The notes: generated from the letters alone by a model not told the origin. 32,000 nucleotides of DNA from Candidatus Saccharimonadota bacterium (GCA_046350815.1 JAXLZO010000001.1:750001-782000), one strand, 5' to 3'; counted from the first letter of the stretch, positions 1,887-27,751 are shown. Numbers and translations are program-made.

Positions 1887-2639
1887 GGGTCTAAACCAGT
1901 TACGGGTTATATTGACGAAGTAACTTTAGCACTTCCTTATAAATATCTTTTCATTGAATACGACAATTATATCTGAATTCAGATTCTTTCAAAAAATAGT
2001 AGAAGTAGACTTTCTTGATTCCATTGAATTGAGAGAGTCTTCTTTTGGTATAACTCCAAAATGACTCTATTCAATTAATGTGTTGAGTTCATCTTGCAAA
2101 TTCATTTGCTCCGTGATGAACACGGTAGTGTTTCTCATATCCAATATCTACAAGCCCATCATAAGCTCACCATCCATCACTGTTAATCTCAGACTCTTCT
2201 ATACGAAGTTTTCATCGAATGATTGGCACGAGAGTCCTTGCTTTTACATCAGGAACTATCTCAGTATATACTTTTCAGTTTCTTTTGAGTAAACCAAAGA
2301 CTATTGTCTTCATACCAGCTCACCTTCCTCTCTTTCATCGGACTCTTGTTGGTCAGAAGTAACTCTCATCTATCTCAACATTTCCAGTCCATATTTCATT
2401 CTTTTCTCTCTCACAGAGAAAGGCTATCGCCTTTCTGATATATCTATACCAATCCTGTGTTGTTTTTGGATTGAGACCTGTTAATACCGCTGTTTTATCT
2501 GAAGTAAAATCCAGAGAAAAATATTTCACAATTTCTCTTATTTTTGCATCTCAAATTCGTGATTTTTTCCTATAGGTAGTTTTACTGATCATAGAGCCAA
2601 GTTTATGGGATAATTTATCCTGTCAACTGGTTTAGACCC
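1887..2639 (-). mobile_element. compact IS1595-family (ISXO2-like) insertion sequence
   Basis: Perfect 15-bp terminal inverted repeats GGGTCTAAACCAGTT (1887-1901) and AACTGGTTTAGACCC (2625-2639) enclose a single transposase ORF. A 7-bp direct repeat ATCCTTA (1880-1886 and 2640-2646) flanks the element as a target-site duplication. Confidence 0.85.
1900..2592 (-). CDS. IS1595-family DDE transposase (ISXO2-like domain), 230 aa
   Basis: With TGA=Gly the frame is open from ATG 2592 to TAA 1900-1902. Translation contains VEIDESYFGPTRVRGKRGRGAGMKTIVFGLLKRNGKVYTEIVPDV...IIRGKL...DGWGAYDGLVDIGYEKHYRVHHGANEFARGTQHINGIESFWSYTKRRL, the hallmark ISXO2-like motifs. All 10 in-frame TGA fall on glycines conserved in that family. 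Confidence 0.9.
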
Positions 2640-2687
2640 ATCCTTATTATTGTTGTTGATAGGGTTGGGACTTAAATCAAGATGATT

Positions 2688-2732
2688 AGTACTTAAAAAA
2701 CATATTCCCTGTGAATATGTTTTTTAAGTACT
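2688..2732 (-). terminator. intrinsic terminator hairpin downstream of the CHAP gene (bidirectional shape)
   Basis: Perfect 19-bp inverted repeat AGTACTTAAAAAACATATT / AATATGTTTTTTAAGTACT with a 7-nt loop and A/T runs inside both arms. It lies 24 nt past the CHAP stop. Confidence 0.6.
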
Positions 2733-2755
2733 TTAGAGTGATACGATATCTAATT

Positions 2756-3328
2756 TTAGAGGAGCGGTTCTCTTTCATTGTTTTTAAGGCGATTGATTTT
2801 ATTGGTGCTGTCTGCGACGAGAGGGTCTCCTTGTAAATTGGGTGGTGTGTTGAGGGGTAACTCTTCTCGACTTGCAACGGTACTTGTTTTGCTGTAGCGA
2901 TACCATCCGAGGCATTTTCCTCTTCATTTGGTCGCTGAATACCCAATACTTCTTAAGACAATAGCATTATCTCAGAGCCCGTCTCATGCACCTGTTCACC
3001 CATTCTGATCGATTACGTTGAGTCGAGTCAGATTTGATTTTTCATCGACAATAGCCACATGACCGTATGGATTGGTTGGGGTTGCATCGAAGAAGAGAAT
3101 ATCACCGACTCTCGGTATCGAGAGGAGGCTGTTATTAATTTTGGTCCATCATGACCCAAATGGAGATCCGGATTTCCATGCATTAATAGCTGATCCTGAG
3201 AATCAAAGAAGCGGTATATTCAAGAGTTCACAATATTTCTTTACCCATGATACGCACTGATAGCCAAATTGGGGATCTTCTTGATACCTGGATCCGATCC
3301 ATTGAGAGAGAATTTCTTTGTGAGTCAT
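2756..3328 (-). CDS. CHAP-domain peptidoglycan hydrolase (amidase/endopeptidase), 190 aa
   Basis: ATG 3328 to TAA 2756-2758, checked triplet by triplet. Catalytic-type motifs FGYQCVSWVKKY (Cys) and GDILFFDATPTNPYGHVAIV (His), then NVIDQNGGTG, are typical of CHAP domains. Several in-frame TGA read as Gly. Confidence 0.8.
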
Positions 3329-3337
3329 AATTGTAGA

Positions 3338-3898
3338 TTAAATCATAAGAAAACTACGGAACCCTCGAGAACCATAATACGAATCAGCACCGTTATGGTA
3401 GGTAAAGACAGTATCATAACGACGATCACAGAAGAGTGCACCGCCGAGCTTTCGAATATCATTTGGTGTTGTTATCCAGCTTGATGTCTTGAGGTCGAAC
3501 TCTCAGAGTTTCTGCAGATCTCTGTATTGTTCCTCTGTTAGGAGCTTTACTCCCATAGCATTCGCTATATCAAGAGCTGTATTTTGTGGTTTGTGTTCCT
3601 TTCGTGCGTCGAGCGCTTCACGATCATAACAGATACTTCGACGACCTTTTGGTGTCTCGATCGAGCAATCACAGAAGATATATTGACTGGTTTTCGCATC
3701 GTATCCGACCACATCCGGTTCACCACCCGTTTCCTCCATCTGAGAGAGTGACCATAGTTTATCATTCTGTGCTTCCAATTTGGTCTGTATATCTTTCCAC
3801 ACAAGATCTTTGTGGCGATTGGAATGTTTTTCAAAACGTGCTTTTAAGAGAGCTATAAACTCTGTACTCTGTTCAGATGTGAGTTTATTTTTGTGCAT
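3338..3898 (-). CDS. DUF4256-family protein, 186 aa
   Basis: Track ORF 3503..3898 continues through TGA 3503-3505 to TAA 3338-3340. The full product (...WSLSQMEETGGEPDVVGYD...CSIETPKGRRSICYDREALDARKEHKP...LGEFDLKTSSWITTPNDIRKLGGALFCDRRYDTVFTYHNGADSYYGSRGFR) matches the DUF4256 pattern as I remember it. Confidence 0.75.
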
Positions 3899-3989
3899 AT
3901 TTTTATTTCAAAAAATAGAATACCCGTATAACTCTCAGAGTATATATGAATGTTTACTCTTTTCCAAATCAATGCATCTGGGGGTCTTC

Positions 3990-5000
3990 TTACTCCAGTA
4001 ATTGGTTGTATGTCTTGATGATAATTGGGAAAAACTCATCATGCACATAGAGGAGAAGATAATCAAGAAACTTGTCTCTCTCCGTTGGTGTCATTGTTTG
4101 ATTACCCCAACCATTTTTGAGCACATCTTGAAGATTATATTCCCCAACCACTTCTAATCTTCTATCGATAAATTTCTGAAAGAGTCGCAAGAAATCTTGG
4201 TCGATTTCTTCATGTCCTATGCACTCACCATTATGCATTTGGATACATCGAAAGACTTCCTGAAATCTTTCCACCATTTGATTATCTGGTATCCGCACAC
4301 CACTGTTGTCACTTTGGAAGAATTCCTGAATCTCTTTTCATTCATCCAATATAGATTCTTTGATACGATCCGAGTGAATAATGGGAAATCATGCGAGCAT
4401 ACCACTTGGGTCAATATCAACAAATGGGAAAAACTGAGCAAGTCATGGTCAGAGTATTTCTATACTCGAATAGAGTTGGCTTCCCCAATATTTTTCTGCC
4501 GTATCGACGAAATTTGCATAACTGATTGGGTGATATGCACTATCATTCTGATCTTGCAAAGATGGATGAGGTCGATCTGAATGAAACTCCCTCATATCTG
4601 GATCGAGTATTTTGTGTCCAATACGGATTACATTGGTAAATCAAACAATATCTGGACTCTCCCGATCTTGATAGACTACATAATCATGTTCAAAGAGTCA
4701 TCATTTCGCTTGAAACTCACGTATAATTGGATGCTCTTTGAGAATAGTATAGACCCGTCCGCAGATGATATGGCAATAACCTCTCGGATATTGTCTCGGA
4801 TCCATAGTGCTATATTGGGGAAGAGGGGAGTCTTGATATTCATAGCACCCATGAAAGATATCCTCAGAAAAACTCGGATCTATGAGAGTGTGTATCGCTT
4901 CAATCGTTGCCTGAACAAGCTCCTGTTCACCTTTTGGGAGCAGTATATCTTCATAGAGTGTTCGTTGATCAGAAGATATACTTCCATTGAGGGATTTCAT
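3990..5000 (-). CDS. hypothetical protein, 336 aa
   Basis: Track ORFs 4701..5000 and 3990..4298 lie in one frame. Every triplet in between was checked and the only stops are TGA, including a TGA-TGA doublet at 4698-4703 (reads ..AKGGLFEH..). No recognisable domain. Confidence 0.65.
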
Positions 5001-5075
5001 CTTTTATAGGGTCAATTTCTCCAAGCATACCATATTTTTCAGACGATTGCAAAATACAACCACGTTACTCCTTAT

Positions 5076-6158
5076 CTATTTCCCCGATTTCGTCCTATTG
5101 CAATTCTTACAGAGCATCTGACAGTTTTCAGCCGTTGTTTTCCCTCCCTCGTGCCACGGAGTGATATGATCTGCTTCCATCTCTTGGATTGCAAACTGGA
5201 GGCGACACTTCGTACAGATACCTTGCTGCCGCTCATAGGATTCTCTCTTTTGTTTCTCAGTGAATGCGCGGATACTCAGATATTTCTCATTCCGAGTCAG
5301 GACATATTCGTAGATACCGGACTTTTTCGTGACATCTTCATCTTGCATAAGTTTTGTGATTTCTCCCTCGAGTTCTGCTGCATCGTATTCCTGATCTTTG
5401 AACTGATTATAGAGTATTCACCATCCACCACCTTTCATTTCTCTTCGATAGTTTGGGAACACGGCCCGTACCCAATTGATCACACTCTGAAAGTAGAGCC
5501 AGAGCTCATTCGCATTCGGTTTATGCTGATGAGTCGCCATATATTCCTCGATAGTATCATCACTGATCCATGAGAGAGCTGTCTCAAGATATTCTTGGCG
5601 TATGGGAGATCCATTCAGATAGTCACTTCCGATATTATAGGTAGGACATCATGTCTTGCTGAAGTACCGCTTTGCATCCGTGAGCCATGTTCCCGTATAG
5701 ACAGCATTTCGTAGCTCTTGTTCGGTGAGTTTCTCACCTGCAATATTGATCGTCTTGAACCAATCAAGCTTCTCACGATCATTCCCCTCGCAGATATAGA
5801 CCATGAGTTTATAGCTCAGGATCTGTTCTCTCTCCACATCGGTGAGATTGTGAAAATACTGAAAATCAAGAGAGAAATTCCCACTCACATATTCACAGAT
5901 ACTGATCGTTCGCTGCTGTCCATCGAGTACCTCATAGGTTCCATCTTCATTTTTCACCCAATACATTACATTGAGCGGGAAATCCTTACGAACTGTCTCA
6001 ATCACAGAGTTTCTCTGCTTATCTTTATAGACGAACTCTCGCTGGTACTTCGGGCGAATATTGAGTGCTCCACTATACCCGATCACACCATCTTCTTGAT
6101 TGTTGATATATCCGGCTGCAACTTCACGGATCATGATTTCTTGGAGTTTGATTTTCAT
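5076..6158 (-). CDS. fused DUF262 (ParB/GmrSD-N-like, DGQQR motif) - HNH endonuclease, 360 aa
   Basis: Track ORFs 5649..6158 and 5076..5348 are joined in frame through TGA codons, with the intervening triplets checked. The N-terminus has FPLNVMYWV...YEVLDGQQRTISI (DUF262). The C-terminus has CTKCRLQF...ADHITPWHEGGKTTAENCQMLCKNCNRTK (HNH with CxxC pairs). Stop is TAG 5076-5078. Confidence 0.85.
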
Positions 6159-6167
6159 AGGGGAGAG

Positions 6168-7127
6168 TTAAGAATGTAATTTTTTATTTTGGATAATAAT
6201 GCGAAAATATGGACATTTTCCATTAATACTTAAATCTTTCTCATCGTTGCCTTTGCGAAACTTGATAATCTCAAATTGATCTGGATTAAATTTATCAAGA
6301 AAAGTAATTGGAACACCTATGTGACCTGTATAATCTATTGGAATATCTTTTGTTTTATCTACGTTGATTGCATCGTAGTTGTCATACTTTGGATATTCAC
6401 TTTTATTTTCTCTATAAACTTTATAGAGGATTAAATCTTCATGTCGTTCCTTGTAATCGATATTCGTGAACCAACGAACTCATTTTACTCGAATGTATTT
6501 ATTTCACTCCGCATCGACTCTGCTTCAGGCAGCGAGAAGTGGGTAGTGTTCTGGAACTCTGAATTCTCGATCCCCACTATGAATGCTTTTTCAGAACCAA
6601 ACTCGATTTTCCTGAATGAGTTTGAAAAAATCTTTATACGTTATCGCGTTTTGGTTTCCGATGATGATGAATTTTTTCTCATATTCGAAGAGTTGAGCGA
6701 TATATTCACGAAAGAGTGAAAATGGGGGATTGGTGATGACAATATCTGACTCTTTTAGTATCTCGATACATTCAGGACTTCGGAAGTCACCGTTTTGTTT
6801 GAGTGGAGTTTTCACCGTATCGAGCTTGTTGATTTTTCCATCGCCATTGATATCGGCGATAATCTCGAGCTTGTACGATGGTTTGTCATAGTCAAAATGA
6901 GTCGATACGAGCTTTTTAAGTCCGAGAAATTCAAAATTCTCAGAGAGATATCTCCAGAAGTGACTTTCTTCAGGATCATCACAATTGCAGAAGATAACCT
7001 TGTCTTTAAGATGCTCTTTATAGTTTTGTATCTCTTTCTCGATATCAGATATCTGTGTGTAGAACTCATCATTCTTTCCTCTGATAGCATTATGTAAATT
7101 CCTATTTCAGGACTTCTTTTCGGACAT
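6168..7127 (-). CDS. N6-adenine DNA methyltransferase, EcoRI-methylase-like family, 319 aa
   Basis: ATG 7127 to TAA 6168-6170 in one frame with TGA=Gly. Motifs NDEFYTQISDIEKEI, VIFCNCDDPEESHFW, DIVITNPPFSLFREYI (NPPF catalytic motif), KKFIIIGNQNAITYK and GVPITFLDKFNPDQFEII. The stop lies 9 nt before the DUF262-HNH start. Track ORF 6812..7177(-) is an off-frame shadow. Confidence 0.88.
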
Positions 7128-7360
7128 AAAAAATGGCAATTAAATATAATTGCCGAGTTTTTCGGTGTTGTAAGCAAACAAAAACGGGTGATTTTATCGA
7201 CCTATTCTAGTTTGCTTACAACGAGATTTCCGTAGCTTTTATATAAAAGGACGGGCGGTGATAAAATCACCCGACTTGTTTATAAAAACCACAGAAAAAT
7301 TGTGTTTGAAAATCTCGGTTGTAAGCCCGAGCACTATATTGGAAATACGATTGAAGGCAA
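7128..7360 (-). promoter_or_regulatory. putative promoter plus ~200-nt highly structured 5' leader of the methyltransferase/nuclease operon (candidate cis-regulatory RNA)
   Basis: On the minus strand TTGCCT (7355-7360), 16 nt, then TATAGT (7333-7338). Downstream elements: hairpin CTCGG/CCGAG (7314-7332) with loop TTGTAAGC; 13-bp helix 7168-7180:7210-7222; 14-bp helix 7185-7198:7260-7273 interleaved with it; palindrome CTTTTATATAAAAG (7236-7249); and hairpin GGCAATT/AATTGCC (7134-7153) plus a U-run abutting the ATG. Confidence 0.4.
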
Positions 7361-7430
7361 GAAAACTATTTTAGTCAGTATTTGCACTGTTCATCAGTGT
7401 GTGTATCATATGTTTTAATCGTTTTTTACT

Positions 7431-7958
7431 ATGGCTTGAAGAACTAACTGTCTTGAAAGGGCATGACACATAGTTATACTCATCAATTGGATACAATGAC
7501 GCTTGGTTGATTTAATTATTTTTAAAAAACATCCAAGAGCATTGAATCATTTCGTAAAGAATAATAGCTCTCCGACTGTAGGCAAGGAAAGAAGGAGGTA
7601 TTGGAAGAAGAATTTTGCAGACATAATAAAAGAATTTTCTGATCTTTTCCCCAACCTTCCATTGAATTGGTTGCCATTACTTAAAGATTTAAATATAAAA
7701 AGAGATATGATTGCACATTGAAATATATCTCTTTATCGTGATTATATTTTCTATCAACCAGATGATAATCATGCGAAAAAGAAGCTGAGATTAATTCGAA
7801 ATACTATTGATGGAAAAATAACCAAGATGACATGCTTCAAATTATCTTTTGATGATAACAATTATGAAGATATTCTGAGTAGTATTCTTCAGTTTGATGA
7901 AAAGCTATTTCCTCATCTTGCACGAGAAATGGGTTTTGATTATGAACGGATAAGATAG
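7431..7958 (+). CDS. small HEPN-motif protein (putative Abi-like RNase), 175 aa
   Basis: Frame 3 is open from ATG 7431 to TAG 7956-7958 with 4 TGA read as Gly, extending track ORF 7503..7721. It contains LNIKRDMIAHG, an R-x4-H HEPN-type motif. A possible promoter is TTGCAC (7382-7387), 16 nt, TATCAT (7404-7409). The start codon choice is uncertain. Confidence 0.45.
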
Positions 7959-7966
7959 CAAAAACC

Positions 7967-8022
7967 AGACGTATAAAAATAATTCCTTCTTATCAATAAG
8001 AAGGAATTATTTTTATACGTCT
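7967..8022. terminator. very long perfect hairpin, bidirectional terminator between convergent genes
   Basis: AGACGTATAAAAATAATTCCTTCTTA (7967-7992) and TAAGAAGGAATTATTTTTATACGTCT (7997-8022) form a perfect 26-bp stem with a 4-nt loop and internal A/T runs. Confidence 0.7.
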
Positions 8023-8109
8023 ATACTATAACTCACCTTCAACGCCCCATCTTTCATTTTTATCTTCCGGATTTCCATCGGTCCAAGAAATACGAAACAG
8101 AAACAAAAA

Positions 8110-8131
8110 GAACACCTTCCAAAGGTGTTCT
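8110..8131 (-). terminator. canonical rho-independent terminator
   Basis: On the minus strand GAACACCTTTGGAAGGTGTTC is followed by TTTTTGTTTC. It starts 6 nt after the TGA that ends ORF 8138..8602. Confidence 0.7.
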
Positions 8132-8137
8132 CATTTT

Positions 8138-8602
8138 TCATACTTCCCCCTCCTTCAGTTTACGCAGATAAACTGAGATAAATTGATGATTTTTTGTGGT
8201 GCACCAGTTGGCGATTTGCCAGTACACACCGAACAGAATAATGGAAACACTGACGACCAGCTTGATGGCAGATTGGTCTGATATATGTGGGCTGATCAAT
8301 TCAATTATTATGACCAGAATACCACAAATCATTATGTCGAAAAAGACCATCAACATACGAAGCATACCCATATGATATTGAGTATTCATTCTCATACCTT
8401 CCTCAAGATTTGCTATCGTCGTCTTATTCCCCCAGCAAGCAGCGATCCTCACCGATTCTTCCTCTCCAAGATATGCTTGGAAAGTTTTTTGTGCTCTCTC
8501 CAATACACCTTTCACTCCGATTTGCACTGCTAAGATGAAAACAGCTATGATGATGCCGAATCCAACCATAACCATCCCCACTACCCATTTTTCCACAGTC
8601 AT
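8138..8602 (-). CDS. small multi-pass membrane protein, 154 aa, apparently terminated by TGA (standard-code gene)
   Basis: AGAGGTG lies 5 nt before ATG 8602 (MTVEKWVVGMVMVGFGIIIAV...). There is no in-frame TGA. The ORF ends at TGA 8138-8140, directly followed by a terminator. Under code 25 it would run on 26 codons to TAA 8060-8062. An own promoter-like TTTACA..TATACT lies upstream. Confidence 0.55.
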   Translation of the reverse strand: MTVEKWVVGMVMVGFGIIIAVFILAVQIGVKGVLERAQKTFQAYLGEEESVRIAACWGNKTTIANLEEGMRMNTQYHMGMLRMLMVFFDIMICGILVIIIELISPHISDQSAIKLVVSVSIILFGVYWQIANWCTTKNHQFISVYLRKLKEGEV

Positions 8603-8761
8603 GATACACCTCTTTTTTTGTTTATGACTTCGTATATAGTATATAAATTTCAATATTTGTAAATAATCGAATATACATTCATGATAAAAGCCCCGTTTCC
8701 TTTTGGGATTTGGGGCTTTGATTGTATCGCAAGATGGTCCCTTGCGAGGATTTGTCTGCGA

Positions 8762-9754
8762 TTATTGGTTGAGAAGCTCCAGTAGTCCTTCAGATTCCTG
8801 CAAGAGGTTGCTGAAGAATTTTACATTTCCGTACCAGCTCGGACCGGATGTGCAGGCGATCGCCACACAGTCTTTTTCGAAGTATTTGGCAGCATCGTCG
8901 CCAGAGAAGATCCCGCCGCATCCGACGATATCCATGTGAGCGGTCAGACCATTCATCACCAGCTGATCGATCAGATTCAGGTTATGATGGCGGAGGATTG
9001 TTCCGGAGAGTCCACCGCGGTTGTGCTGTGTACTGCCATCAGGGTTTTTGACGACGAGAGCATCACCGTAGCTGACATTTGGTATGGTGTTGCTCATGAC
9101 GACTGCTTGGATCGTCGTGGCATGTTTGATGAGTGTTTCCGTGAGCTCATCGATGAACCAGTCCGAAACGGTGGGTGTATGGGTGAAATCCAGATGCGGG
9201 TGATCTTCGGCGAACCATGCAAGCTCGCACGGAGACATGTACGGCGACAGTTTCAGCCAGATCGGCTTATCGAATTCAACTTTCTTGATCTCCTCAAGGA
9301 GGTAATCAAGATCATCGATCGCATACGCCACCGGAAGATGCCCGGTATTCGGGCAGCCACCATTGATTTCAACACCTGCGATGCTCTCATTGCCTTTCAG
9401 CATGTTCAGCATTTCGATGTACTCACTCGCCTTGAATCCGGCGATGGAGATGATTATCGGTCGTGTCGGATTGGATGGGAGCAACTTGATTGCTTCGGTG
9501 AGGCCAATGTTCGGCATGCCGAGTGCGTTCAAGCCAAAACCTTCCTGGGTGAGGCGACCAAAATCTTCCGGCCAGACCAAGTTACCTTGATTCCCGAGCC
9601 TTTCCTGTAAAGTGAACGAACCCAACACAACAGCTCCTAACTGTGCATCGGGATGAAGAAATTGCTTTGCTTGAAGCGGATGTTTTGCAACACCGGCACC
9701 AAGAATCAATGGTATCGACATTTTGATACCGCCAACTATGATTTTCTCTGCCAT
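8762..9754 (-). CDS. dihydroorotate-dehydrogenase-family (class-1-like) flavoenzyme, 330 aa
   Basis: Uninterrupted 330-codon ORF with no TGA and stop TAA. GGAG lies 8 nt upstream of the ATG. Motifs GFGLNALGMPNIG, IIISIAG, VEINGGCPNTGH (N-x-x-C-P-N active-site type) and DIVGCGGIFSGDDA are typical of DHOD-like TIM-barrel enzymes. Hand-counted 100-nt samples gave 42% and 56% G+C, against 35% in the methyltransferase gene. Confidence 0.8.
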   Translation of the reverse strand: MAEKIIVGGIKMSIPLILGAGVAKHPLQAKQFLHPDAQLGAVVLGSFTLQERLGNQGNLVWPEDFGRLTQEGFGLNALGMPNIGLTEAIKLLPSNPTRPIIISIAGFKASEYIEMLNMLKGNESIAGVEINGGCPNTGHLPVAYAIDDLDYLLEEIKKVEFDKPIWLKLSPYMSPCELAWFAEDHPHLDFTHTPTVSDWFIDELTETLIKHATTIQAVVMSNTIPNVSYGDALVVKNPDGSTQHNRGGLSGTILRHHNLNLIDQLVMNGLTAHMDIVGCGGIFSGDDAAKYFEKDCVAIACTSGPSWYGNVKFFSNLLQESEGLLELLNQ

Positions 9755-10015
9755 GGACTTTCTCCGGTTTTCGACCTTGGAAATTGGGAATGAAACCGAT
9801 TGATACCGTAGCGAATAGGTTGCCCTACCACCACGATAACTAATTATTTATATACAAATAATATACTATGTCAAATAAAGAAAATTTTCTGTATAGCGGA
9901 TTAAATACAAAGTCATCCCATAAAATACACCAGACTTAATTTCTACTTTTAATGAAATGCTATACAATAAGGATATCTACAATATACAACCTTTCATTCT
10001 TTTTCTTGCGCTATT

Positions 10016-10552
10016 ATGAAATATTTATGCCTCATATTCTTCACTCTTTTTATTTCTGCGTGTAGTACTTCTGAGATGCGAACCACACAGTCCACGGAGA
10101 AATCTGCTCGTTCTTCCGGAACACTCTCTGATCCATATGAGATAGGATCAGTCGATACAGCATTCAAGATTCTCTGACCAGATCATAAAATAGAGGTAGG
10201 ATGAGTGCCAGATCCAAAAGTGAGTGGAGTTACATGCTTTTATAGTCGAGCCAAGAAGGGTGGTGTAACTGGTGCTGTTGGTATAGCTGAAGATACGAGC
10301 GACGCATCAGTCGCATGTCGTCAAACCAGTGATATTGCCTTCAAAGAAGCTATTGAACCAGTTGAAGAAATATGGAAAGAATCCACGAGTTTCTTCTTTA
10401 AAAAACTCCGAATCATCCGTTTCTACGATGCTAACTCCAACAGTCTGATTTATCTTGTCTATTCCGATAAGCTCATAGATGGATCTCCTAAAAACAGTAT
10501 ATCTGCTGTTCCACTGAATAGTATAACACCTCAAATGAAAGAGAGTAAATAA
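10016..10552 (+). CDS. creA: CreA-family lipoprotein, 178 aa
   Basis: ATG 10016 to TAA 10550-10552, extending track ORF 10205..10552 through two TGA codons. Lipobox LFISAC, then [62 protein letters not shown]...RFYDANSNSLIYLVYSDKLIDGSPKNSISAVP, which closely parallels E. coli CreA. Confidence 0.8.
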
Positions 10553-10736
10553 TAGGTTTTTTAATATTTCTTATCAGAATAACCTGGAAAAAACACCAGA
10601 AAATATTCAAAATCCAGAGAAGAAAAAAATCTGAAGACCAAGAAAACAGCATCTTTAAGCTCCCCGAAAAAGTTCGATTCCTACCTGCTATGCAGTCAGA
10701 TCATCACAGAAATATATATCATGACTACAAAAATAC

Positions 10737-10780
10737 ATAAATAAAGGGATTCTCCAAATATGGAGAATCCCTTTATTTAT
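10737..10780. terminator. bidirectional intrinsic terminator
   Basis: A ~20-bp perfect stem ATAAATAAAGGGATTCTCCA / TGGAGAATCCCTTTATTTAT with loop AATA lies between convergent creA and the repeat-protein gene. Confidence 0.65.
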
Positions 10781-10897
10781 GTGGAAAACGCACATTATGT
10801 GAAACGCAGGTTTCAAGGTCTGCGAGCTCGGTTTTATATGGCTGATAGTTCTCGAAGAAGTTAGAGACTCTTTCCTCCTCACTTCTCACTTAAAGAT

Positions 10898-12142
10898 CTA
10901 GTGTTTATATGTCCAAGGTACAGAAATCTTTCCTTGTCTCCACTTCCTACATCCATCGAGGGGATCCGAAATATTATTCACCGCAAAATAAAGCTTCACC
11001 CCTCTCCCAAAATTCTCTCGTACTTCCTCAAGTGTAATTCAGAGTTCCTTCATAATCGCTTCATCACTCAAAGTCTCATCAAGGTGCTTCTTCACTCTGA
11101 GAATCGCCCCCATAGGATCTCCTATATTATTCACCGCAAAATGAAGCTTCACCCCTCTCCCAAAATTCTCTCGTACTTCCTCAAGTGTAATTCAGAGTTC
11201 CTTCATAATCGCTTCATCACTCAAGGTCTCATCGAGGTGCTTCTTCACTCTCCGAAGTGCCCCCATAGGATCTGAAATATTCCCAACAGCAAAATGAAGC
11301 TTCATCCTTCTTCCAAAATTCTCTCGTACTTCCTCAAGTGTAATTCAGAGTTCCTTCATAATCGCTTCATCACTCAAAGTCTCATCAAGGTGCTTCTTCA
11401 CTCTCTGAAGCGCCCCCATAGGATCTGAAATATTCCCAACAGCAAAATGAAGCTTCATCCTTCTTCCAAAATTCTCTCGTACTTCCTCAAGTGTAATTCA
11501 GAGTTCCTTCATAATCGCTTCATCACTCAAAGTCTCATCAAGGTGCTTCTTCACTCTCTGAAGCGCCCCCATAGGATCTGAAATATTCCCAACAGTAAAA
11601 TAAAGCTTCACCCTTCTCCCAAAATTCTCTCGTACTTCCTCAAGTGTGATTCCAAGCTCTTGAGCTATCATGGAATCATTTGAGAAGTATTGAGCAATAA
11701 AATCCTCATCCCAGAATTGTGCTATTCTGGAGGTATTTTTCTCATTTTCCATCTTATTTGATCTCATATATAGTCGTATACTCTCATAGTTACAGACAAA
11801 TGCTTCATAGAGAGCCGTAGCATCCTCAGAAGAAAGTTCTGATTTGGTATACTTCTTATATTTTTTACAAAAATCTTGAAAAGCTTCTCTCATTTCACTC
11901 TCTATTTCCTCTTGTTTTCCTTTCATCCAAGAGACACTCTGAAAAGAGTGTTTATGAATAATTCATTGAACATCTGCTTGTATCTTTGGAAGATTTCATC
12001 CATTCGGTTTTCCTTGCTCAGTATTTTCTCTCATACCCTCTCGCATAGCTTCTTGAGAGGTGTGGAGTGCCCTCATTGCTTCTTGTTTTTGATCGAGTAT
12101 ATTTGTCTCTCCTTGGGAGACAGGTGCATTGTTGGCATTCAT
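10898..12142 (-). CDS. tandem-repeat protein with five 51-aa HTH-like modules, 414 aa
   Basis: One frame is open from ATG 12142 to TAG 10898-10900, with all triplets 10898-12190 checked. Track ORF 11498..11926 is the middle piece. The repeat unit is ELGITLEEVRENFGRRxKLxFAVGNISDPMGALQRVKKHLDETLSDEAIMK. Confidence 0.75.
10961..11659. repeat. tandem direct repeat, period 153 bp, about 4.6 copies, coding
   Basis: The landmark AAAATTCTCTCGTACTTCCTCAAGTGT recurs at 11009, 11162, 11315, 11468 and 11621, an exact 153-bp spacing. The copies are near-identical. Confidence 0.9.
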
Positions 12143-26962: not shown

Positions 26963-27751
26963 ATGCATCGTGAACTTATTTTCCTATTTTCTCCTATGTC
27001 TCATATAGAACTCTCTAAGCTCAATACACGAGCTCCTGATAATGTCGATCGTAATGAAATTGAAGCAGAATTTGAACAAATCCGTGAAGAAATTATAGAG
27101 CTACAACAAAAATTCTATGCTGATGGACGTCATTCGCTTCTCATCGTGCTCCAAGGTATGGATGCATCTGGTAAGGATGGCACTGTACGCCATGTGTTCT
27201 ACGGAGTCAACCCGCTCGGTATTCGAGTGTATCCATATGGTAAGCCAACCGATGAAGAAGCAAAACATGATTTTCTCTGGCGACTGCACGTGAATACTCC
27301 AAAGAAAGGTATGATCTCTATATTCAATCGCTCCTACTACGAGGATATTCTTGTGCCAACCGTTGAAGGGTATATTGAAAAGGATATCATCGAGCGTCGC
27401 TATGATCATATCAACAACTTTGAAGAAATGCTTCGTGACAATGGTACTATTGTATTAAAGTTCTTCCTTCATATGTCCAAAGATATGCAACGCGAACGTC
27501 TCGATGAGCGAATGGAAGAGAGGAAGAAGAATTGGAAGCATCATGCTTCTGATGAAGTGGTTCGTAAAAAATGGGAAGACTATATGGAAGTCTACGAAGA
27601 CGTATTCAAGAAGACAAATACAAAACATGCTCCATGGCATATCATCCCAACAGATGATAAGTGGTACAAAGTTTATCTCGTTGCGAAGACGATCCGTGAT
27701 ACACTCAAAGATCTCGATCTTGAGTGGCCAGAGCTCAGTGATGCGGTATAA
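26963..27751 (+). CDS. ppk2: polyphosphate kinase 2 family protein (polyphosphate:nucleotide phosphotransferase), 262 aa
   Basis: Intact ORF in the track. Motifs LLIVLQGMDASGKDGTVRHVF (Walker A type), DFLWRLH, ISIFNRSYYEDILV, LKFFLHMSKDMQRERL and APWHIIPTDDKW. An extended -10 like TGGTAAAAT lies at 26923-26931. The start could instead be ATG 26996. Confidence 0.88.
   Translation: MHRELIFLFSPMSHIELSKLNTRAPDNVDRNEIEAEFEQIREEIIELQQKFYADGRHSLLIVLQGMDASGKDGTVRHVFYGVNPLGIRVYPYGKPTDEEAKHDFLWRLHVNTPKKGMISIFNRSYYEDILVPTVEGYIEKDIIERRYDHINNFEEMLRDNGTIVLKFFLHMSKDMQRERLDERMEERKKNWKHHASDEVVRKKWEDYMEVYEDVFKKTNTKHAPWHIIPTDDKWYKVYLVAKTIRDTLKDLDLEWPELSDAV

What the first reader, a model, noticed from the sequence alone, without database searches (positions are those of the whole stretch)
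8023..9861. Islet 1: two genes with standard-code hallmarks (SD, higher GC, no internal TGA, TGA stop plus terminator) embedded in a code-25 genome
Seen: the DHOD-family gene (8762..9754) and the membrane-protein gene (8138..8602) differ from their neighbours in four independent ways. (a) Composition: hand-counted 100-nt samples gave 42% and 56% G+C in the DHOD gene versus 35% in the methyltransferase gene, with CTG/CCG/GCC/GGC-type codons. (b) Both have canonical Shine-Dalgarno sites (GGAG, AGAGGTG). None of the roughly 20 native starts I inspected has one; they are preceded by T/A-rich sequence. (c) There are 484 codons without a single TGA. (d) The membrane gene ends at TGA 8138-8140, followed 6 nt later by a textbook terminator (8110-8131). 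Inference: recent acquisition from a standard-code, SD-using donor, possibly a host or prey of this CPR organism. In the recipient the donor's TGA stop would be read as Gly, adding 26 residues through the terminator hairpin to TAA 8060-8062. An 8-nt direct repeat TATACTAT (8022-8029 and 9862-9869) brackets the islet but is not statistically compelling in AT-rich DNA.
Basis: partly seen in the sequence, partly recalled or inferred. Interest (0 to 1): 0.75.

Follow-up and report, generated by a model that had tools for sequence, protein, structure and literature searches.

The report
Standard-code-style pyrD cassette in a code-25 genome
In a bacterium that reads TGA as glycine, a pyrimidine-synthesis gene and a small membrane-protein gene are written as if TGA were still a stop. 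The pyrimidine gene belongs to a self-contained operon cassette that shows the same foreign signature in every TGA-recoded genome where I found it.

Summary
The window is a TGA=Gly Gracilibacteria MAG.

**pyrD-like gene, 8762..9754(-):**
- It has the highest GC3 in the window (.58, z 4.8).
- None of its 32 Gly-type codons is TGA (native rate .23).
- It has a GGAG Shine-Dalgarno (SD) site; only 1 of 19 native starts has one.

**Membrane gene, 8138..8602(-):**
- It is an orphan with a strong SD.
- It ends in TGA plus a terminator.

**New findings:**
- The islet is two separate modules.
- Module 1 is a pyrC-less copy of a complete expression cassette: promoter, conserved structured leader, SD, class-1A-type pyrD (±pyrC, pyrE, pyrF), conserved 3' hairpin and terminator.
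- Across nine recoded contexts (21 genes), none of about 584 Gly-type codons is an in-frame TGA, all genes are SD-led, and 11/21 use TGA as the apparent stop. Host GC ranges from .23 to .48.
- Near-identical strains carry divergent or mosaic cassette alleles, so recombination with an outside pool keeps it unameliorated.

**Interpretation:**
- The foreign, standard-code-style origin is supported.
- A host or prey donor is not supported. All close relatives sit in other recoded genomes, and the next closest are standard-code CPR bacteria.
- The reservoir is unknown.

The parts
9846..9874 (-). Sigma-70-type promoter of module 1: TTGACA (9869-9874), 14-nt gap, TATATAAAT (9846-9854); the -10 hexamer inside the conserved 9-mer is not assigned
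   Evidence: Read from the sequence. The same TTGACA / TATATAAAT-type promoter precedes the cassette in L001, L018, L020 and L083.
9755..9845 (-). 5' leader RNA. It holds a conserved hairpin (9804-9837, inner stem GGUARG-N4-CYUAUY), a pyrimidine box TTTCATTCCCAAT (9783-9795, equivalent to TTAACAWTCTCAAT in relatives and complementary to the SD), and the SD GGAG (9762-9765).
   Evidence: RNAalifold gives 13 pairs, 5 with compensatory changes. The fold z-score is -2.9. Covariance model R1 finds it only upstream of pyr units in recoded loci, including a second copy before pyrD in L018. There is no Rfam family match.
8762..9754 (-). pyrD-like gene: class-1A-type dihydroorotate dehydrogenase, 330 aa, TAA stop, no TGA, GC3 .58 (NCBI MFO0763970.1)
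   Evidence: Pfam DHO_dh 1e-29. The best solved relative is L. lactis DHOD A, with the CPN active-site Cys aligned. In relatives it lies in an operon with bona fide pyrC, pyrE and pyrF. dN/dS is .18 against allele L014.
8727..8761 (-). Conserved 3' hairpin (loop motif TCCTCRYRAGGGA) directly after the stop codon
   Evidence: A homologous element follows the pyrC stop in L001, L016, L005, L018, L083, L017 and L086. The outer stems differ in sequence but pair in each. The automatic alignment recovered only the inner stem.
8686..8719 (-). Intrinsic terminator of module 1 (GCCCC...GGGGC + T-run)
   Evidence: The fold z-score is -3.9. It is 94% identical over 34 nt to the terminator that follows pyrC in L001/L022, while the CDS is only 71% identical.
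8636..8663 (-). Promoter of module 2: TTTACA (8658-8663), 16 nt, TACTAT (8636-8641)
   Evidence: Promoter scan. Strain L015 diverges from the window at about 8654, so module 2 starts here.
8138..8613 (-). Orphan membrane-protein gene with SD AGAGGTG (8607-8613), ATG 8600-8602, 154 codons, and TGA at 8138-8140 (NCBI MFO0763969.1, annotated as 180 aa)
   Evidence: It has no Pfam or NCBIfam match. Its only homologues are its own 90% cluster. The TGA is kept in all 8 strain variants.
8101..8132 (-). Intrinsic terminator 5-6 nt after the TGA of the membrane gene
   Evidence: 11-bp stem, z -5.1.
8060..8137 (-). Code-25 read-through extension (26 codons through the terminator to TAA 8060-8062)
   Evidence: The extension is not conserved between strains (P0043 diverges after the hairpin). 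Similarity to strains L014 and L024 ends at 8023.
7971..8018 (.). A 48-nt AT-rich perfect palindrome, a bidirectional terminator-like hairpin. It would end transcripts that read through to TAA 8060.
   Evidence: 20-bp stem.

Best explanation
The region holds two independent, horizontally exchanged modules inside a variable part of a TGA=Gly Gracilibacteria chromosome.

**Module 1 (8686-9874, minus strand).**
- It is a truncated copy of a self-contained pyrimidine-biosynthesis expression cassette.
- Its parts, in order, are a sigma-70-type promoter, a conserved structured 5' leader whose pyrimidine box can pair with the SD, the SD, a class-1A-type dihydroorotate dehydrogenase (pyrD), a conserved 3' hairpin and an intrinsic terminator.
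- In relatives the same unit carries pyrD-pyrC, and often a second leader-led pyrF-pyrE unit. Together these make UMP from carbamoyl-aspartate.
- In this lineage pyrC has been lost, so the 3' elements follow pyrD directly.

**Origin of the coding sequences.**
- They were shaped where TGA is not a sense codon: no in-frame TGA, frequent TGA stops, SD-led starts, GC3 about .4-.6.
- They stay that way in recoded hosts because they are continually overwritten, by recombination and whole-allele replacement, from a pool of divergent cassette alleles outside the resident genome.
- The pool has not been identified. The pyrD lineage itself is CPR-type, not host-type.

**Module 2 (8023-8663).**
- It is an orphan membrane-protein gene with its own promoter, SD, TGA stop and terminator.
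- It is present in some strains only.
- In this host its TGA is read as Gly. Either the ribosome runs through the terminator to TAA 8060, or the transcript ends first and carries no stop codon.

**Shown:** the anatomy, statistics, recurrence, phylogenetic placement and strain mosaicism.
**Inferred:** the regulatory role of the leader, loss of pyrC, the direction and source of transfer, and the fate of the TGA-terminated product.
For: **Window statistics.**
- GC3 z is 4.8.
- 0/32 Gly-type codons are TGA (P 3e-4).
- SD is present against 1/19 native starts.
- All native stops are TAA or TAG.

**Recurrence.**
- I examined nine recoded contexts: window, L001, L005, L016, L017, L018, L020, L083, L086. 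Host GC is .23-.48.
- Long-ORF coverage rises from 0-.69 to .83-.98 only when TGA is read as sense.
- In 21 cassette genes, 0 of about 584 Gly-type codons are in-frame TGA. All 21 have an SD (20 by the regex, and L017 pyrD by eye).
- The apparent stop is TGA in 11/21 genes, and in 7/8 for pyrC. Beyond it, non-homologous sequence runs 3-129 codons to the next TAA/TAG.
- In L017 native GC3 is .06-.14 and TGA is 74% of Gly-type codons, while the cassette has GC3 .41-.46 and 0 TGA.
- TGA=Gly is confirmed by TGA<->GGA/GGT orthologous substitutions, 7 of 10.

**Function.**
- The gene matches DHO_dh with the class-1 catalytic Cys conserved.
- The partner genes pass the NCBIfam equivalog cut-offs for PyrC (homodimeric type), PyrE and PyrF.

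**Unit character.**
- The promoter, leader and 3' hairpins are conserved.
- The covariance model hits only pyr units in recoded loci.

**Turnover.**
- L017 and L086 have flanking proteins 88-99% identical at the same locus, but PyrD is 74% and PyrC 47% identical. The break lies at the CDS limits.
- Window against L015: 2 mismatches in 800 nt of native flank (CreA 537/537 identical), but about 70 in 1200 nt of the islet, in patches (Fisher 8e-14).
- The membrane module is absent in L015.
- pyrF is of two non-orthologous types in different cassettes.

**Loss of pyrC.** The window's 3' UTR is homologous to the post-pyrC UTR of L001.

**Selection.** dN/dS is .18 for pyrD and .30 for the membrane gene (syn vs nonsyn P .02).
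Against: **No donor found.**
- No standard-code genome carrying this cassette type (leader + SD + TGA stops) was found.
- All ten or so contexts of the cassette clade are recoded.
- The standard-code lineage nested in the pyrD tree (L085/L088) lacks the SD, leader and pyrC neighbour.
- A pool confined to recoded genomes would not by itself explain the absence of TGA or the retained TGA stops.

**Composition is partly intrinsic.**
- The gene is also somewhat GC-richer than its background in standard-code CPR genomes.
- In one Saccharibacteria genome the nucleotide-metabolism genes are SD-led while housekeeping genes are not.
- So part of the signal may belong to this gene class.

**No mobility evidence.**
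- No integrase, transposase or target-site duplication bounds the module.
- No copy lies on known phages, plasmids or viral contigs.

**Limits of the data.**
- The tree is neighbour-joining without support values.
- The rest of the 1.28-Mb genome was not available, so whether pyrC, pyrE and pyrF exist elsewhere is unknown.
Confidence: 0.6

Rival explanations
1. The cassette is kept compatible with the standard code by selection. Either it shuttles regularly between code-25 bacteria and standard-code cells (other CPR, hosts, or an unsampled mobile element), so only TGA-free versions persist. Or UGA still ends translation in these organisms in the special context of the conserved 3' hairpin 9-19 nt downstream.
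For: - There are 0 in-frame TGA among about 584 Gly-type codons across hosts. This includes higher-GC recoded hosts where the cassette is not compositionally foreign (L016 .42 vs .45).
- The TGA stop of pyrC is kept in 7/8 alleles, although the tail length varies and one allele is only 47% identical.
- A conserved hairpin follows the stop.
- There is a precedent in Gracilibacteria phages that lack in-frame TGA (PMC10746230).
Against: - No cassette copy was seen in a standard-code host, phage or plasmid.
- The dual-code phages avoid TGA as a stop, whereas the cassette uses it.
- Gracilibacteria are reported to lack RF2 (PMC6851277), so UGA termination has no known agent.
- The hairpin is also present after a TAA stop (window, L005).
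Confidence: 0.17
2. pyrD is a native, vertically inherited CPR gene. Its composition, SD and lack of TGA reflect protein composition, expression level and leader-dependent translation, not transfer.
For: - The family is CPR-specific and nested among Moraniibacteriota and Saccharibacteria.
- The pyrD-pyrC pair also occurs in a standard-code Saccharibacteria genome.
- The gene is GC-richer than its flanks in 7 of 8 standard-code loci.
- Nucleotide-metabolism genes are SD-led in L089.
- The SD is needed if the leader works by SD sequestration.
Against: - The GC3 contrast lies at third positions.58 vs .34 here, and .45 vs .10 in L017.
- Near-identical strains carry 74%/47%-identical alleles.
- The window and L015 are identical in CreA but patchily 5-13% different in pyrD.
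- The cassette sits at different loci in different genomes.
- Other native enzymes, including NrdD and NrdG, use TGA freely.
- TGA stops followed by junk extensions are not expected for a long-resident gene.
Confidence: 0.12
3. The genes were acquired directly from a non-CPR host or prey bacterium.
For: - The genes show standard-code hallmarks, SD sites and GC near 50%.
- The cassette's PyrC is the homodimeric type common in Proteobacteria, about 50-52% identical to Gamma- and Betaproteobacteria.
Against: - PyrD has no non-CPR relative above about 28% identity.
- The cassette clade is separated from everything else by a long branch. PyrC drops from 77-85% within the clade to <=67% outside it.
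- The same pyrD-pyrC pairing exists in Saccharibacteria.
- The membrane gene has no homologues at all.
Confidence: 0.05
4. The islet is an assembly chimera or contamination that joins standard-code DNA to a Gracilibacteria contig.
For: There is an abrupt compositional change within about 2 kb.
Against: - The same junctions occur in independent Logan and ENA assemblies from other samples (L014 spans CreA-pyrD-membrane and beyond; also L015 and L024).
- Eight cluster members come from NCBI, Logan and ENA.
- The same phenomenon appears in eight other recoded contexts.
Confidence: 0.01

Closest known systems
Class 1A dihydroorotate dehydrogenase (PyrDa, Lactococcus lactis; PDB 1dor, 1jrb)
   Same: - It has the same fold family (Pfam DHO_dh).
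- The active-site loop with the catalytic Cys is aligned (NaGCPNtghlP vs nlsCPNvpgkP).
- It is of similar size, has no PyrK partner and no membrane anchor.
- In relatives it sits in an operon with pyrC, pyrE and pyrF.
   Different: - It is very divergent: 87 bits against NCBIfam equivalog cut-offs of about 270.
- It has a 20-30-residue insertion region around residues 175-215.
- It forms a CPR-restricted clade.
- Its electron acceptor is unknown.
Code-11-compatible phages of Gracilibacteria and Absconditabacteria (Liu et al. 2023, mBio, PMC10746230)
   Same: Both are genetic elements associated with code-25 hosts whose genes lack in-frame TGA, so they can be read in either code.
   Different: - Here it is a chromosomal metabolic operon, not a phage, and there are no viral hits.
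- It uses TGA as the apparent stop in about half of its genes, whereas those phages are reported to rely on other stops.
Compositionally atypical horizontally acquired genomic islets / one-way permeability of a genetic-code barrier (standard code into a TGA-sense recipient)
   Same: - GC and codon usage are atypical.
- Presence and absence vary between strains.
- It lies in a variable region next to an IS1595 transposase, a GmrSD/HNH nuclease and an EcoRI-like methylase.
- The donor's TGA stops become read-through extensions.
   Different: - There are no integrase, tRNA-site or direct-repeat boundaries in the window.
- The same cassette recurs across many recoded genomes and is replaced in situ within its own non-coding frame.
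- No donor lineage is visible.
Leader-mediated control of pyr genes (E. coli/Salmonella pyrC and pyrD 5' hairpins that sequester the SD; Bacillus PyrR attenuators). Recalled from established literature, not tested here.
   Same: A short 5' leader with a hairpin and a sequence complementary to the SD sits ahead of pyrD/pyrC and pyrF/pyrE units. It is repeated before each unit.
   Different: There is no sequence or Rfam match to the PyrR element or any other family. The ligand or protein, and whether control is transcriptional or translational, are unknown.

Membership tests
Dihydroorotate dehydrogenase, class 1A (PyrD) | DHO_dh TIM-barrel domain over the full length | tested here: met
   Pfam PF01180 scores 1e-29, 104 bits against a cut-off of 27. 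A profile of the family hits class 1A structures best, at 6e-26.
Dihydroorotate dehydrogenase, class 1A (PyrD) | Catalytic Cys in the CPN active-site loop (Ser in class 2) | tested here: met
   C134-P135-N136 are invariant in 21 family members and align with the L. lactis DHOD A loop.
Dihydroorotate dehydrogenase, class 1A (PyrD) | Score above the curated NCBIfam equivalog cut-off | tested here: not met
   The best score is 86.9 bits against a cut-off of 269. It is a divergent subfamily, so enzymatic identity is inferred from context.
Dihydroorotate dehydrogenase, class 1A (PyrD) | Genomic association with other UMP-pathway genes | tested here: inconclusive
   This is met in relatives: pyrC is adjacent in 8/8 other recoded contexts, and pyrF and pyrE are present in L017 and L018, all above equivalog cut-offs. 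In the window itself pyrC is missing, and the rest of the genome is unseen.
Dihydroorotate dehydrogenase, class 1A (PyrD) | Dihydroorotate oxidation activity and electron acceptor | not testable with these tools
   This needs an enzyme assay or complementation of a pyrD mutant.
Horizontally acquired genomic islet | Composition and codon usage deviate from the resident genome | tested here: met
   GC3 z is 4.8, and 0/32 Gly-type codons are TGA against a native rate of .23. The same holds in eight other recoded hosts.
Horizontally acquired genomic islet | Presence/absence or allele polymorphism among close relatives | tested here: met
   The membrane module is absent in L015. There is patchy divergence in pyrD beside an identical flank. 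The allele is replaced between L017 and L086.
Horizontally acquired genomic islet | Identifiable donor lineage or phylogenetic incongruence with a named outside group | tested here: not met
   The nearest relatives are other recoded contigs. The nearest standard-code relatives are CPR at 35-53%.
Horizontally acquired genomic islet | Mobility machinery or insertion scars (integrase, tRNA target, direct repeats) | tested here: not met
   There is none at the module ends. TATACTAT is a promoter -10-type box found at each module's promoter and in other cassettes. An IS1595 transposase lies 5.4 kb away. In L005 the cassette lies between tRNA-Lys and tRNA-Trp.
Dual-code-compatible mobile elements (as described for Gracilibacteria phages) | No in-frame TGA | tested here: met
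   0 of about 584 Gly-type codons in 21 genes. There is no W/X at conserved Gly columns in 33 PyrD and 16 PyrC database members.
Dual-code-compatible mobile elements (as described for Gracilibacteria phages) | TGA avoided as a stop, with other stops used at gene ends | tested here: not met
   TGA is the apparent stop in 11/21 cassette genes and in the window's membrane gene. The next TAA/TAG lies 3-129 codons further.
Dual-code-compatible mobile elements (as described for Gracilibacteria phages) | Phage or plasmid backbone | tested here: not met
   There are no relatives in IMG/VR, INPHARED or PLSDB beyond ordinary DHODs at <=28%.
Known pyr-leader RNA families (PyrR element and others in Rfam) | Match to a curated covariance model | tested here: not met
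   There is no meaningful hit at E<=10 in 9700-9950, and none at gathering score in eight loci.

The most novel reading that the evidence does not exclude
A whole metabolic operon (pyrD-pyrC, pyrF-pyrE, with its own promoter, leader RNA and 3' hairpins) persists across the TGA=Gly clade in a form that is deliberately readable in the standard code. One possibility is that it is regularly exchanged with, or used in, standard-code cells such as the hosts of these epibionts. The other is that UGA followed by the conserved 3' hairpin still ends translation in bacteria thought to have lost UGA termination.
Probability: 0.15. Interest if true: 0.85.

Novelty: new variant of a known kind. Interest (0 to 1): 0.62.

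Why it matters
Genetic-code change is often described as a firewall against gene exchange. Here a functional-looking biosynthetic operon with standard-code grammar sits in at least nine different TGA=Gly genomes. It is overwritten so often that it never adapts to its hosts. This gives three things.

1. A concrete, repeatable case of one-way (or two-way) gene flow across a code boundary.
2. A natural test of what happens to TGA-terminated genes in a host that reads TGA as glycine: read-through through terminators, stop-less transcripts, or context-dependent termination. This is checkable by proteomics and 3'-end mapping.
3. A candidate new cis-regulatory RNA for pyrimidine genes in CPR bacteria. 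These bacteria mostly lack nucleotide synthesis, and their dependence on hosts is a central open question.

Tried and rejected
- **Greedy ORF calling.** With TGA as sense it picked the wrong strand over the islet (8734..9843 +, 20 TGA), because TGA-free GC-rich genes leave long open frames. I fixed this by homology.
- **Confirming TGA=Gly from a PDB alignment of NrdD.** This was uninformative, since the aligned X positions were not conserved. I settled it from NCBI's own translation, from PNPase motifs read by eye, and from TGA<->GGN orthologous substitutions in L017/L086.
- **Target-site duplication (TATACTAT).** Rejected. It is a promoter box present at each module and in other cassettes.
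- **Phage, plasmid or viral carrier.** No hits.
- **Known RNA family for the leader.** None.
- **Integron-like cassette.** Rejected, because each unit has its own promoter and no integrase or attC-like site was seen.
- **High-GC recoded Gracilibacteria as a sufficient reservoir.** This is unlikely. Even there, native TGA use (roughly 5-9% of Gly-type codons, my estimate from the codon counts) predicts several TGA per cassette, and it would not explain the TGA stops.
- **Automatic alignment of the 3' hairpins.** It misaligned the outer stems, so covariation there rests on single-sequence folds only.
- **Taxon names for outgroup PyrC clusters.** None were available.
Full report
**1. The window and its genetic code**

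Open reading frames of at least 150 aa cover 34% of the window under the standard code. They cover 91% when TGA is read as sense. Making TAG or TAA sense gives only 49-54%. The exact proteins of the two genes are in NCBI as MFO0763969.1 and MFO0763970.1, from a 'Candidatus Gracilibacteria bacterium' MAG contig of 1.28 Mb. NCBI translates the TGA of the membrane gene as Gly.

**2. Check of the observation**

*The pyrD-like gene, 8762..9754(-).*
- It encodes 330 aa and matches Pfam DHO_dh at 1e-29.
- Its GC is .50 and its GC3 is .58. The 22 native genes of the window have mean GC3 .34 (sd .05, max .475), giving z 4.8.
- The GC profile peaks here at .52, the window maximum.
- None of its 32 Gly-type codons is TGA. 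In native genes 23% are (17% in conserved enzymes), so P = 3e-4 to 3e-3.

*The membrane ORF, 8138..8602(-).*
- It is less extreme: GC .42, GC3 .47, and 0/12 TGA (P .045).
- It has a strong SD (AGAGGTG).
- It ends in TGA, followed 5-6 nt later by an 11-bp hairpin and T-run.
- Under code 25 it runs 26 more codons, through that terminator, to TAA 8060-8062.

*Native genes.* Only 1 of 19 native starts has any SD-like tetramer within 20 nt. All 19 native genes in that set end in TAA or TAG, as do all 22 native genes listed.

*Assembly.* The junctions are reproduced in independent Logan and ENA assemblies (L014, L015, L024), so this is not a chimera.

**3. What the pyrD-like gene is**

- It belongs to a small, distinct family. 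There are 33 close members among 5.8 billion proteins.
- The catalytic Cys-Pro-Asn loop is invariant.
- The best solved relative is class-1A DHOD of Lactococcus lactis.
- It falls far below NCBIfam equivalog cut-offs. Its role is therefore best supported by context.
- In eight other contigs it is followed by a homodimeric-type dihydroorotase. In L018 and L017 it is accompanied by pyrF and pyrE. All of these pass equivalog cut-offs.
- In the window the sequence after the pyrD stop (8686-8761) is homologous to the sequence that follows pyrC in L001. The terminator is 94% identical over 34 nt, while the CDS is only 71% identical. The simplest reading is that pyrC was lost from a pyrD-pyrC unit.

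**4. The same signature recurs in every recoded host examined**

With the cassette masked, the contigs L001, L005, L016, L017, L018, L020, L083 and L086 all gain long-ORF coverage specifically when TGA is sense. Coverage goes from 0-.69 to .83-.98. Their GC ranges from .23 to .48. In L017/L086, TGA is exchanged with GGA or GGT in 7 of 10 orthologous substitutions, so TGA = Gly there too.

Across these nine contexts, including the window, there are 21 cassette genes:
- They contain about 584 Gly-type codons and no in-frame TGA.
- All 21 have an SD, often CCAAGGAG.
- In the standard reading 11 end in TGA, and pyrC does so in 7 of 8 cases.
- After that TGA comes non-homologous sequence of 3-129 codons before the next TAA/TAG.

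The 47 native genes with reliable calls behave differently:
- Only 1 has an SD-like site.
- TGA makes up 23-74% of their Gly-type codons.
- Every stop is TAA or TAG.

The contrast is starkest in L017. Native GC3 there is .06-.14 and TGA is 74% of Gly-type codons. The cassette has GC3 .41-.46 and no TGA.

**5. The cassette is a complete, conserved expression unit**

*Upstream.* Each unit is preceded by these elements, in order:
- a TTGACA / TATATAAAT-type promoter;
- a leader of roughly 90-110 nt with a 13-bp hairpin, in which 5 pairs show compensatory changes among 5 sequences;
- a box TTAACAWTCTCAAT, whose UUCUC is complementary to the SD;
- a T-run;
- the SD.

A covariance model built from five leaders finds further copies only in front of pyr units in recoded loci. 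These include a second copy before pyrD inside L018. It finds nothing elsewhere in the window or in standard-code relatives (motif searches). Rfam has no match.

*Downstream.* After the last gene there is a conserved hairpin (loop TCCTCRYRAGGGA) and then a terminator of conserved form.

The window has all of these parts (coordinates).

**6. Turnover**

*L017 versus L086.* They share the locus, and their flanking proteins are 88-99% identical. Their PyrD is only 74% identical and their PyrC 47%. Nucleotide identity falls from about 95% to 30-80% exactly between the SD/start of pyrD and the stop of pyrC.

*Window versus L014/L015.*
- CreA is identical over 537 nt.
- The 800-nt native flank has 2 mismatches.
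- The islet has about 70 mismatches in 1200 nt. They are arranged in patches, and a 300-nt central block has only one (Fisher 8e-14).
- L015 lacks the membrane module altogether, with the break near 8654.
- Similarity of L014 and L024 ends at 8023, and L014 lacks 6188-8022.

*Other signs.*
- pyrF is of two non-orthologous types in different cassettes.
- dN/dS between the window and L014 alleles is .18, so the gene pool is under purifying selection.

Frequent recombination with divergent alleles explains why the coding sequence never takes on host composition or acquires TGA codons.

**7. Where it comes from**

*PyrD phylogeny.* In a neighbour-joining tree, the window and P0001-P0030 form one clade. 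Its sister is a standard-code metagenome contig (L025, 46%). Beyond that lie Moraniibacteriota, Saccharibacteria and 'Bdellovibrionales'-labelled MAGs at 35-43%. One sub-lineage inside the clade (L085/L088) looks standard-code. It has no SD, no leader and no pyrC neighbour.

*PyrC.* The cassette's PyrC is 77-85% identical within the clade, with one 67% relative of unknown context (P0084). It is 52-59% identical to a group that includes a Saccharibacteria genome with the same pyrD-pyrC pair, and about 50-52% to Proteobacteria.

*Mobile carriers.* No relative lies on phage, plasmid or viral contigs.

*Conclusion on source.* The lineage is CPR-type, not host-type, and the standard-code reservoir that the hallmarks imply has not been sampled. 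The alternative is that the cassette is kept standard-code-readable by selection. The closest precedent is the report of Gracilibacteria phages that lack in-frame TGA (PMC10746230), although those phages avoid TGA stops. The papers I searched do not describe TGA-free pyr genes in these lineages. Sieber et al. only note that most pyrimidine synthesis genes are present in one Gracilibacterium and uncommon in CPR (PMC6851277).

**8. The membrane module**

- The 154-aa product has about three predicted helices.
- It has no family match and no homologue outside its own 90% cluster.
- All eight strain variants keep the TGA. Sequence after the terminator differs between them.
- dN/dS is .30 on 15 changes (P .02).
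- It has its own promoter.
- In this host the TGA must be read as Gly. If the terminator works, the transcript carries no stop codon. If the ribosome melts the terminator, translation ends at TAA 8060 and transcription probably ends at the 7971-8018 palindrome. Which of these happens is untested.

**9. Verdict**

The core inference, genes written in standard-code grammar inside a code-25 genome, is supported and generalises.
- The donor guess (host or prey) and the picture of a single recent insertion bounded by an 8-nt repeat are not supported.
- The best explanation is a truncated copy of a recurrent, self-contained pyr cassette, plus an unrelated orphan module. Both are maintained by ongoing exchange with an unidentified pool (confidence about .6).
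- The main open question is why the cassette stays TGA-free, with TGA stops, when it has so far been seen only in recoded hosts.

Noticed in passing
window 9755-9845 (-); L001 7341-7443, L018 454-548 and 2310-2405, L020 961-1071, L083 140-235: A candidate new cis-regulatory leader RNA sits in front of each pyr transcription unit. It has a 13-bp hairpin with compensatory changes and a box complementary to the SD. There is no Rfam match, and it is found only in the recoded loci.
   Followed up: partly
window 8727-8761 (-); after the pyrC stop in L001, L005, L016, L017, L018, L083, L086: A conserved 3' hairpin (loop TCCTCRYRAGGGA) starts 9-19 nt after the stop codon and lies ahead of a terminator of conserved shape. 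The outer stems differ in sequence but still pair. Its function is unknown.
   Followed up: partly
L017 2100-6520 vs L086 3124-5980: Two genomes about 96% identical in flanking proteins carry PyrD alleles 74% identical and PyrC alleles 47% identical at the same locus. Identity breaks at the CDS limits. L017 also has a duplicated terminator-promoter-leader module followed by pyrF-pyrE (5044..6469), which L086 lacks.
   Followed up: yes
window 6188-8022 and 8023-8654: Strain-level indels. L014 lacks the EcoRI-like methylase plus the 175-aa ORF segment (6188-8022). L015 lacks the membrane module. The left flank (1900-7958) is a variable region with an IS1595 transposase, a CHAP protein, DUF4256, a GmrSD_N+HNH nuclease and an EcoRI-type adenine methylase. 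All of these use TGA codons.
   Followed up: partly
L089 (Saccharibacteria MAG CAYWEW010000001.1) 2700-12000: In a standard-code CPR genome the nucleotide-metabolism genes (dCTP deaminase, two DHFR, ThyA, Tmk, pyrD-like, pyrC, His_Phos) have SD sites and slightly higher GC3. Neighbouring housekeeping genes (SecE, NusG, L11, ArgRS, IleRS, RecO) do not.
   Followed up: no
L038 (Ga0307959_1000288) whole locus; also L035-L040: A more distant DHOD-like gene (32% identity) sits in contigs where 11 of 12 long ORFs have no TGA in frame and end in TAA/TAG. The only TGA joins the SD-led DHOD gene to the next ORF. This may be another lineage that avoids or reassigns TGA and shows the same pattern.
   Followed up: no
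L005 9701-9777 and 12205-12279: In this higher-GC recoded contig the pyrD-pyrC cassette lies exactly between tRNA-Lys(CTT) and tRNA-Trp(CCA). An HTH_17 (excisionase-like) gene lies just upstream. pyrD ends TGATGA, overlapping the pyrC start.
   Followed up: no
window 26963-27751 (+): The PPK2 gene has no TGA (0/10 Gly-type codons) and is the only native-looking start with an SD-like AGGA. Its composition is otherwise native (GC3 .38). The TGA result is not significant on its own.
   Followed up: no
window 10898-12142 (-): A 414-aa protein has about five tandem copies of a roughly 50-residue unit (ELGITLEEVRENFGRR.KL.F.VGNISDPMGAL.RVKKHLDETLSDEAIMK). It coincides with a strong negative GC-skew stretch.
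   Followed up: no
L085 and L088: In a probable standard-code relative with RNase Y-HU-pyrD-like synteny, TATAAT boxes sit 6-10 nt before many start codons. This suggests largely leaderless mRNAs.
   Followed up: no
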